DNA of 57,735 nucleotides from a virus. Its lineage: Duplodnaviria; Caudoviricetes. Positions 35,232 to 35,314 of the stretch are shown here, in pieces; within the stretch, counting starts at the first letter, position 1; each line of letters begins with the position of its first letter. The stretch is from the IMG/VR virus record IMGVR_UViG_3300028837_001890, positions 1 through 57,735 of that record; one strand, given 5' to 3'. The notes beneath the pieces are model-generated. The model was not told the origin of the DNA and did not search any database. It was given only the letters and a program-made list of their open reading frames with translations. Made by a program: the position numbers and the translations under genes.

Positions 35232-35314
35232 ACTGTGGTTTGCTTTGCTAAACTGGGCTACACACTGCAGCGCTGTGCTTGGTGCGACTTCGCTACACTC
35301 AGCACGGCTTAGCA
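35232..35314 (-). ncRNA. pentamer-repeat guide-like RNA 1
   Basis: 15 x WGY-NN then tail ACCACAGT, between promoter and RBS. Confidence 0.75.

What the first reader, a model, noticed from the sequence alone, without database searches (positions are those of the whole stretch)
35240..35314. Array 1 decodes, skipping every third base, to an excisionase-type HTH motif (GTLAVWRSTxRY)
Seen: the variable dinucleotides on the + strand (complement of the predicted RNA) read TT TT AA GG AC CT GC GT TG CG TC AC CA CG TA. Adding one free base after each gives, from AA onward, codons for (K/N)-G-T-L-A-V-(W/C)-R-S-T-(H/Q)-R-(Y/stop). Knowledge: TLAVWRSTGRY is a recurring recognition-helix sequence of excisionase/AlpA-like HTH proteins in proteobacterial prophages and integrative elements. 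Inference: the guide pairs with the coding strand of such a gene and the skipped base is the wobble position, so synonymous changes would not allow escape. The phage's own HTH genes (20993-21262, 5217-5744) differ in this helix, so it does not appear to self-target. The motif match is by recall, not by search.
Basis: partly seen in the sequence, partly recalled or inferred. Interest (0 to 1): 0.95.

Follow-up and report, generated by a model that had tools for sequence, protein, structure and literature searches.

The report
VIPR guide RNA targeting excisionase-type gene
The repeat tract is a guide RNA of a VIPR system, a CRISPR-like phage weapon first described in 2026, and its two-letters-in-three code spells the conserved DNA-reading helix of a small excisionase-type regulator carried by integrative elements, so the reading holds but the mechanism is already in print.

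Summary
Positions 35240-35314 hold 15 pentamers (NN plus GCT-like triplet on the + strand; WGY-NN in the minus-strand RNA).

The locus is a VIPR system as described in three 2026 bioRxiv preprints:
- a perfect promoter;
- vrRNA array 1;
- a 195-aa Cas7-like Vipr gene (34620-35207, minus strand);
- arrays 2 and 3;
- four tRNAs.

The "skip every third base = wobble" rule is the published, experimentally shown VIPR code. The scan has noted VIPR before on other DNA (241 notes, at least 216 genomes).

The recalled motif is real. A 10-unit pattern gave 23 hits in genome contigs and 2 in viral contigs. All 25 lie in frame in small HTH ORFs reading TLAVWRST(G/K)RY; all 8 tested match Pfam HTH_17. The four loci examined lie beside host selA/selB (one) or P4-type integrases (three).

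The best natural match is 23 of 24 guide letters. No perfect target was found in any collection, and the matching genomes are far more GC-rich than this 28% GC phage, so the true target is probably an unsampled relative.

One addition: lineages that lack G at scaffold position 1, this one included, have lost both residues reported to read that G.

This is a new member of a known kind, of moderate interest.

The parts
35343..35371 (-). Sigma-70 promoter TTGACA-17-TATAAT driving the locus
   Evidence: 12 of 12 consensus matches, the best of 19 promoter-like sites in 33700-35800.
35240..35314 (-). vrRNA array 1: 15 pentamer units, scaffold triplet WGY (one CAC exception) followed by variable NN in RNA sense. 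This is the finding itself.
   Evidence: The plus-strand dinucleotides are TT TT AA GG AC CT GC GT TG CG TC AC CA CG TA.
35232..35239 (-). Conserved 3' end of vrRNA 1 (ACCACAGU in RNA sense), preceded by a constant AA unit
   Evidence: All three arrays end AAACCAYAGU. The tail is unpaired in the minimum-free-energy fold.
34620..35207 (-). vipr gene, 195 aa from ATG 35207. Calls used 34620-35213, which adds two residues. It is a Cas7/Csm3-like single-RRM RAMP with a C-terminal G-loop reading GLMAFRP...GYYGTF.
   Evidence: phrog_4652, E 9e-12. Model pLDDT 78, pTM 0.77. Foldseek hits Csm3/Cas7 chains, E 5.8e-6, TM 0.45-0.57. hhalign against Felixounavirus heid_97 gives probability 98.2%, E 4e-14. 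51 IMG/VR relatives.
34549..34603 (-). vrRNA array 2 (11 units); tail ACCACAGU at 34541-34548
   Evidence: No target was found.
34464..34518 (-). vrRNA array 3 (11 units); tail ACCAUAGU at 34456-34463
   Evidence: No target was found.
34108..34441 (-). Four tRNA genes (Ile-AAT, Lys, Asn, Thr) directly downstream on the same strand, with no terminator between them and the arrays. They are probably one transcript with arrays 2 and 3.
   Evidence: tRNAs. In one search the only terminator-like hit lies inside a tRNA.

Best explanation
Positions 35240-35314 encode, on the minus strand, the guide part of a VIPR RNA (vrRNA). It is transcribed from the perfect promoter at 35371-35343.

How it works (from the cited preprints, shown for phage SUSP1, inferred here):
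- Copies of the adjacent 195-aa Cas7-like Vipr protein polymerise along the RNA, one protomer per pentamer.
- Each protomer buries a scaffold triplet (here WGY instead of GGY) and presents the NN pair.
- The NN pairs bind double-stranded DNA with one target base skipped per unit, and so silence transcription.

My inference for array 1: its 12 informative units (GG AC CT GC GT TG CG TC AC CA CG TA on the paired strand) read codon positions 1-2 of G-T-L-A-V-W-R-S-T-(H/Q)-R-Y. This is the conserved recognition helix of a small HTH_17 excisionase-type regulator. That regulator sits next to P4-type integrases in integrative, satellite-like elements of Pseudomonadota. The phage would thereby silence a resident competing element in its still unknown host. 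The three tail-proximal units (RNA AA, AA, UU) are probably part of the constant 3' end rather than guide.
For: System identity:
- Three arrays, all minus strand, flank the gene, downstream of a 12/12 promoter.
- The protein has a Cas7/Csm3 fold.
- 49 of 51 IMG/VR homologue loci carry NGY-NN arrays next to the gene.
- Relatives L030 and L011 hit Felixounavirus phages by tblastn. Phage heid shows GGY-NN arrays on both sides of heid_97. hhalign gives probability 98.2%.
- The published description matches: 9-16 pentamers, an invariant 3' tail, one upstream array plus several downstream, the 1-nt skip at the wobble position, and targets in rival elements.

Target:
- Pattern ACNCTNGCNGTNTGNCGNTCNACNNNNCGNTA gave 23 hits in genome contigs. 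My analytic chance expectation is about 1.
- All 23 are in frame, with the skip at the wobble position, in ORFs of 48-112 aa (from the first start codon) reading TLAVWRST-x-RY, with x = G in 22 and K in 1.
- It gave 2 hits in viral contigs, same family, against 0 for a reversed-unit control.
- 8 of 8 tested ORFs hit HTH_17, 6 above the cut-off.
- Neighbours are P4-type integrases in L052, L072 and L075, plus VapE-like and AAA_25 genes. L055 lies beside selA/selB.
- Over the 12 units, L055 and provirus L076 match 23 of 24 letters. L052, L069 and L072 match 22 of 24.
- A GTLAVWRSTKRY sub-family exists (14 of 15 relatives). One member reads KKGTLAVWRSTKRY, which matches 12 of the 13 decoded residues.
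- No self-target.
Against: - No perfect target was found. The 13-unit pattern gave 0 hits in the own genome (up to 3 mismatches), viral contigs, genome contigs and metagenome contigs.
- The 10-unit pattern that includes CA gave 0 hits in metagenome contigs and viral contigs.
- The CA unit is mismatched in all 25 natural hits. Among 135 listed protein relatives only one has Q there, and it differs elsewhere.
- By my analytic estimate, at least 23 of 24 is expected about 0.3 times, and at least 22 of 24 about 11 times, by chance in 596 Gb x 2 strands. The numbers alone are therefore not significant.
- An even sample of 400 further genomes of the class of G001 gave 0 real hits and 1 control hit.
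- Arrays 2 and 3 do not converge on the same elements. 105 arrays from related loci do not either.
- The hit genomes are 39-67% GC, against 28% for the phage.
- Only one shuffled-type control could be run in a collection.
- No vap gene was identified, and no structured tail was predicted.
- Expression and binding are untested.
Confidence: 0.7

Rival explanations
1. Array 1 is a genuine VIPR guide, but its likeness to the TLAVWRST-RY helix is coincidence. The real target would be some other, unsampled gene or promoter of a rival phage in the true host.
For: - The chance expectation for at least 22 of 24 is about 11 places in genome contigs (my calculation).
- The hits are in GC-rich genomes, unlike the phage.
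- The CA unit is never matched.
- Arrays 2 and 3 have no match in the same loci.
- The class sample gave 0 real hits and 1 control hit.
Against: - All 25 hits fall in one gene family, in frame, with the skip at the wobble position, on its most conserved helix.
- The gene class, a regulator beside the integrase of an integrative element, is the kind of target published for VIPR.
- A random place would be in frame in any mobile-element gene perhaps 1-2% of the time (my estimate).
Confidence: 0.22
2. The guide acts on the mRNA rather than the DNA. The vrRNA is complementary to the sense strand, so it could also pair with the HTH transcript.
For: The paired strand is the coding strand in all 25 hits. 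The cryo-EM preprint reports that Vipr-vrRNA also forms a duplex with single-stranded RNA.
Against: The same preprint reports that RNA targets give mostly incomplete filaments and no triplex. The discovery preprint reports targets on either strand and repression from either strand.
Confidence: 0.05
3. The pentamers are only a protein-binding scaffold or a regulatory leader, like the TRAP-binding (G/U)AG repeats of the trp leader. On this reading the NN are meaningless spacers.
For: Array 1 lies in the 5' leader of the vipr mRNA. The TRAP comparison is from my own knowledge.
Against: - There are three arrays with different NN and a shared 3' end.
- Related loci carry up to 13 arrays.
- Published reprogramming shows the NN set the specificity.
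- The in-frame HTH match would be unexplained.
Confidence: 0.03

Closest known systems
Type II VIPR of Escherichia phage SUSP1 and the Pseudomonas fulva prophage (bioRxiv 10.64898/2026.04.26.720920, .720927 and 10.64898/2026.10.15.759431)
   Same: - A small Cas7-like Vipr protein.
- Pentamer vrRNAs with a constant triplet and variable NN.
- One array upstream and several downstream of vipr, with a conserved 3' end.
- A phage-borne locus.
- A decode that follows the 1-nt skip at the wobble position.
- A predicted target that is a regulator or excision function of a resident integrative element.
   Different: - The scaffold is WGY (A/U at position 1), not GGY.
- The residues aligned with H17 and D177, which read G1 in SUSP1, are C and A here.
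- The tail is a short unstructured AAACCAYAGU, with no predicted pseudoknot.
- No vap gene is recognisable.
- Arrays 2 and 3 run straight into a tRNA cluster.
- The Vipr protein is too diverged for tblastn to reach cultured phages directly. It links to them only through relatives and a profile.
Cas7/Csm3 backbone subunits of class 1 CRISPR effectors (types III and VII)
   Same: The fold. By the cited structures, a filament on the guide RNA with a thumb that breaks the duplex periodically.
   Different: - No CRISPR repeats, no other cas genes and no adaptation module.
- A 5-nt period with 2 paired bases, instead of a 6-nt period with 5 paired.
- A single RRM.
HTH_17 / excisionase-family (AlpA-like) regulators of P4-type integrative elements and satellites: the predicted target class
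   Same: Hits to Pfam PF12728 and weak hits to TIGR01764. The genes lie beside tyrosine integrases that carry an Arm-DNA-bind_3 domain.
   Different: Whether these proteins act as excisionases or as activators was not tested. The AlpA role in satellite induction is recalled from the literature and comes from no call.

Membership tests
VIPR system | Vipr protein: about 20 kDa, single-RRM RAMP with a G-loop and a thumb | tested here: met
   195 aa. The model hits Csm3/Cas7 chains. The C-terminal G-loop motif is conserved in the family alignment. hhalign against a Felixounavirus array-flanked homologue gives probability 98.2%.
VIPR system | vrRNA: 9-16 tandem pentamers with a conserved triplet and hypervariable NN, flanking vipr | tested here: met
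   Arrays of 15, 11 and 11 units. The consensus is WGY-NN, not GGY-NN. The preprint allows 'a related consensus' and names YNNNG repeats. Its fig. S17 and data files were not seen.
VIPR system | Invariant, structured 3' tail after the repeats | tested here: inconclusive
   All three arrays end AAACCAYAGU. However, no hairpin or pseudoknot is predicted there. Relatives L017 and L018 share GCAAACCAAAGGAC.
VIPR system | Target recognition with a one-nucleotide skip that falls on codon wobble positions | tested here: inconclusive
   All 25 hits under the 1-nt-skip pattern are in frame with the skip at the wobble position.
VIPR system | Accessory vap gene next to vipr (described as typical, not universal) | tested here: not met
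   No ORF lies between vipr and arrays 2 and 3. Seven flanking ORFs have no relative in the 52 related loci searched, the 51 IMG/VR loci plus L082, and no informative Pfam or PHROG hit.
VIPR system | vrRNA is expressed and co-purifies with Vipr; repression depends on the NN | not testable with these tools
   This needs small-RNA sequencing, a pull-down and a reporter assay.
HTH_17 / excisionase-type DNA-binding proteins (the target genes) | Match to Pfam PF12728 above the gathering score | tested here: met
   8 of 8 ORFs hit at E <= 0.0015. 6 of 8 are above 27 bits; L055 and L072 score 19.2 bits. TIGR01764 hits are below the cut-off.
HTH_17 / excisionase-type DNA-binding proteins (the target genes) | Location in an integrative element beside a tyrosine integrase | tested here: met
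   A Phage_integrase domain is present in L052, L072 and L075, with Arm-DNA-bind_3 in L072 and L075. L055 lies next to selA/selB. L076 lies within the first 130 bases of a 40-kb IMG/VR provirus record. Only 4 of the 25 loci were examined for neighbours.

The most novel reading that the evidence does not exclude
This lineage is a natural re-specification of the VIPR scaffold code. Both residues that read G1 in the SUSP1 structure are lost (H to C/A, D to A), and with them the G at scaffold position 1 (WGY or NGC units).

Its array 1 would be a pan-family guide. It reads only the invariant codon letters of the recognition helix of AlpA/excisionase-type regulators, so that one RNA disarms a whole class of P4-like satellites.

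The vrRNAs would be matured together with a tRNA cluster by the host's tRNA-processing enzymes.
Probability: 0.3. Interest if true: 0.55.

Novelty: new member of a known kind. Interest (0 to 1): 0.35.

Why it matters
The finding shows that a reader working from sequence alone recovered the VIPR gapped code and a correct target-family motif. The biology, however, was published in 2026.

What the locus adds:
- A diverged Vipr with a non-GGY scaffold. The covariation between scaffold base 1 and the two G1-reading residues could guide engineering of orthogonal VIPR scaffolds.
- A predicted target class, the recognition helix of an excisionase-type HTH beside P4-type integrases. This fits the published picture of phages immobilising satellites.
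- An unusual placement of vrRNAs in one transcription unit with tRNAs.

None of this is shown experimentally.

Tried and rejected
- TRAP-like or leader reading. I considered it first from the 5-nt period. I dropped it after finding many arrays per locus in relatives and the VIPR preprints.
- Rfam. Only tRNAs reached the gathering score in the window.
- Direct links from the window protein. tblastn against cultured phages found no match. A single-sequence scan of viral contigs also found none. The alignment-based scan worked.
- Host identification. Megablast of 25 kb found no match. TerL is at most 34% identical to cultured phages of mixed hosts. The Fis-like protein points only to Pseudomonadota. 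The host stays unknown.
- Convergence of arrays 2 and 3 on the HTH loci. Best scores were 16/22 and 15/22, inside the shuffled range. Their 10-unit patterns gave 0 hits in viral contigs.
- Arrays from related loci. 105 were scored against the HTH loci. The best was 23/30, which is not convincing across 105 tests.
- Search for a vap gene by synteny: none found.
- Even sample of 400 genomes of the class of G001: uninformative, with 0 further real hits and 1 control hit.
- Supplements of the preprints (fig. S17, data S3/S4, tables) were not opened. They may already list WGY-type systems, this covariation, or excisionase-type HTH targets.

Full report
WHAT IS THERE

The window is a 57,735-base virus record with 28.3% G+C. 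It is a myovirus-like phage with terminase, portal, major head, sheath and tape-measure genes.

At 35240-35314 the plus strand reads 15 pentamers of NN plus a GCT-like triplet.

Read on the minus strand, each unit is W-G-Y followed by NN. A run detector finds three such arrays in the window, all on the minus strand and none on the plus strand:
- 35230-35314 (15 of 17 units);
- 34539-34603 (11 of 13 units);
- 34454-34518 (11 of 13 units).

All three end in AAACCAYAGU. A 12-of-12 sigma-70 promoter lies at 35371-35343 on the minus strand.

The order along the minus strand is:
1. promoter;
2. array 1;
3. a 195-aa ORF (34620-35207; my calls used 34620-35213, which adds two residues);
4. array 2;
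5. array 3;
6. tRNA-Ile, Lys, Asn and Thr.

WHAT THE GENE IS

The ORF has no Pfam hit and matches phrog_4652, a family of unknown function, at E 9e-12. Eight homologues were found among 5.8 billion proteins.

An AlphaFold model built on their alignment has pLDDT 78 and pTM 0.77. Its best PDB matches are Csm3/Cas7 subunits of type III and type VII CRISPR effectors, with E from 5.8e-6 and TM 0.45-0.57.

An alignment-based scan of IMG/VR returned 51 related loci out of 58 pattern matches. 40 of the 51 show lag-5 periodicity next to the gene. With an NGY-NN caller, 49 of 51 carry arrays beside the gene. Examples are GGT-NN in L011 (13 arrays), GGC-NN in L029, L030 and L044, and AGC-NN in L001.

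IT IS A KNOWN KIND

A full-text search led to bioRxiv 10.64898/2026.04.26.720920. I read its outline, sections 4, 10, 20, 26 and 27, and passages. It describes VIPR systems as follows:
- a roughly 20-kDa ancestral RAMP protein called Vipr;
- vrRNAs of 9-16 YNNGG repeats followed by an invariant 3' tail;
- typically one vrRNA upstream and several downstream of the genes;
- recognition of double-stranded DNA by the NN pairs with one target base skipped per unit, the skipped base usually being the codon wobble position;
- no PAM, and targets on either strand;
- transcriptional repression, with natural targets in satellites and prophage regulators;
- seven types and alternative repeat forms (NNNGG, YNNNG, NNNNG).

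A second preprint.720927, gives cryo-EM structures. I read its outline and part 1 of section 4. There is one protomer per repeat. G1 is read by H17 and the G-loop residue D177. G2 is read by R138 and W178. Y3 sits in a narrow pocket.

A third preprint, 10.64898/2026.10.15.759431, shows SUSP1 VIPR silencing a satellite's excision recombinase, with on average 89.2% of read bases matching. I read its outline and sections 6 and 17.

The window protein links to the cultured examples through its relatives:
- L030 and L011 hit Felixounavirus E. coli phages by tblastn.
- Phage heid shows GGY-NN arrays on both sides of heid_97 and heid_98.
- The family profile aligns to heid_97 with probability 98.2% and E 4e-14.

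I did not verify that heid itself is in the preprints. The scan has noted VIPR on other DNA many times: 241 notes in at least 216 genomes.

THE SPECIFIC CLAIM: THE TARGET OF ARRAY 1

The 13-unit pattern (AA to TA, 26 specified letters) has no exact match in viral contigs, genome contigs or metagenome contigs. It has no match within 3 mismatches in the phage itself.

- All 23 lie in frame, with the skip at the wobble position, in ORFs of 48-112 aa counted from the first start codon.
- These ORFs read TLAVWRST-x-RY followed by (N/K/D/P)LP(F/Y)xK(V/I/S)GR. The x is G in 22 and K in 1.
- The organisms are Pseudomonas, Halomonadaceae, Aeromonas, Colwelliaceae, Porticoccaceae and Betaproteobacteria.

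The same pattern gave 2 hits in viral contigs, both of the same family and one in a record classed as a provirus. A control with the units in reverse order gave 0.

Eight of eight tested ORFs hit Pfam HTH_17, six above the cut-off. TIGR01764 'excisionase' hits are weak.

Neighbours were examined in 4 of the 25 loci:
- tyrosine integrases in L052, L072 and L075, with an Arm-DNA-bind_3 domain in L072 and L075;
- a VapE-like gene in L052;
- an AAA_25 gene in L075;
- selA/selB next to L055.

At the protein level, 86 of 120 listed relatives of the L052 protein read TLAVWRST-GRY. That search picks candidates by shared words, so it is biased towards the motif. A sub-family reads GTLAVWRSTKRY, found in 14 of 15 relatives of L055.

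HOW GOOD IS THE MATCH

| Units compared | Letters matched | Loci |
|---|---|---|
| All 15 units | 24 of 30 | L052, L069 |
| 12 units, GG to TA | 23 of 24 | L055, provirus L076 (only C versus A in the CA unit) |
| 12 units, GG to TA | 22 of 24 | L052, L069, L072 |

Seven of the 23 genome hits have G before TLAVW.

The three tail-proximal units (RNA AA, AA, UU) are shared in part with array 2. They resemble the constant AA units that end the arrays of relatives. I therefore take them as part of the constant 3' end; this is inference.

My analytic estimates, assuming uniform base composition, for 596 Gb x 2 strands are:
- about 1 chance hit for the 20-letter pattern;
- about 0.3 for at least 23 of 24;
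- about 11 for at least 22 of 24.

Hits within one family are not independent, so the counts alone do not prove anything. The weight lies elsewhere. Every hit is in frame, on the most conserved helix of one family, and that family is a regulator beside the integrase of an integrative element. This is the class of target published for VIPR. I put the chance of such a landing at roughly 1e-4 to 2e-2, depending on how broadly 'mobile-element gene' is drawn (my estimate).

EVIDENCE AGAINST
- No perfect target exists in any collection. The 10-unit pattern with CA gave 0 hits in metagenome contigs and viral contigs.
- No listed relative reads TLAVWRST(H/Q)RY.
- The hit genomes are 39-67% G+C, against 28% for the phage.
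- Arrays 2 and 3 do not hit the same loci above shuffles.
- 400 evenly drawn genomes of the class of G001 gave 0 further hits and 1 control hit.
This is a reason for caution with 80% matches.

My reading is that the guide was shaped on a member of this HTH family carried by an element of the phage's own, unsampled host. I hold this at about 0.7.

No self-targeting is seen. The best own-genome score is 18 of 30, against a shuffled mean of 18.3 and a range of 17-21.

AN ADDITION: SCAFFOLD COVARIATION

I aligned the 51 relatives, heid_97 and the window protein, and called their arrays.

| Residues at the D177 / H17 columns | Loci with arrays | Scaffold base 1 |
|---|---|---|
| D in the G-loop, H or N at the H17 column | 46 | G in the majority in 45 of 46; the exception is L031, whose arrays lie on both strands and are unclear |
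| A in the G-loop, C or A at the H17 column (window, L001, L017, L018) | 4 | Not G in any: A/U, A, or mixed |

These four loci also share a GCAAACCA-type array end. They may be one clade, so this may reflect only one or two evolutionary events. The preprints' supplements, which I did not see, may already show it.

DIFFERENCES FROM THE PUBLISHED TYPE II SYSTEMS
- The scaffold is WGY.
- The tail is short and has no predicted structure. Fold z-scores are -2.35, -1.36 and -1.52, and the tails of arrays 1 and 2 are unpaired.
- No vap gene is recognisable.
- Arrays 2 and 3 lie directly upstream of four tRNA genes with no terminator between them. This suggests joint processing (inference).

VERDICT

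This is a new, diverged member of VIPR with a plausible family-level target and no proven target. Interest is moderate.

Noticed in passing
window 34365-34441 and 34281-34357: tRNA-Ile is called with anticodon AAT, and a tRNA cluster (Ile, Lys, Asn, Thr) follows the vrRNA arrays on the same strand. Earlier first-reader notes flag odd features of these tRNAs.
   Followed up: no
window 10972-11467: A 21-base tandem repeat of 23.6 copies at 82% match (score 606), probably inside a coding region.
   Followed up: no
window 20514-20777: Perfect 16-base x 6.4 and 32-base x 3 tandem repeats lie next to an 11-base repeat.
   Followed up: no
window 23826-24269, 26005-26095, 27239-27501: Further repeat blocks: a T-rich 45/90/135-base array, a perfect 12-base x 7.6 repeat, and nested perfect 20/49-base repeats.
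   Followed up: no
L011 3600-4830; L014; L029 3600-4200: Related viral loci carry very long vrRNA batteries: 13 arrays in L011 and 11 in L014. In L029 the arrays are separated by a conserved GC-rich hairpin-like spacer.
   Followed up: partly
L031 (IMGVR_UViG_3300010376_000155): NGC-NN arrays lie on both strands at several places around a Vipr that keeps H and D. This is the one exception to the scaffold and residue covariation.
   Followed up: partly
window 8524-9450 and 28550-29641: Two DNA methyltransferase genes of the same PHROG families (phrog_116, phrog_363) lie in one phage.
   Followed up: no
window 37693-37980: A phage-encoded Fis-like protein. Its Atlas neighbours are Fis-like clusters, mostly from Pseudomonadota. 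This is the only hint to the host.
   Followed up: partly
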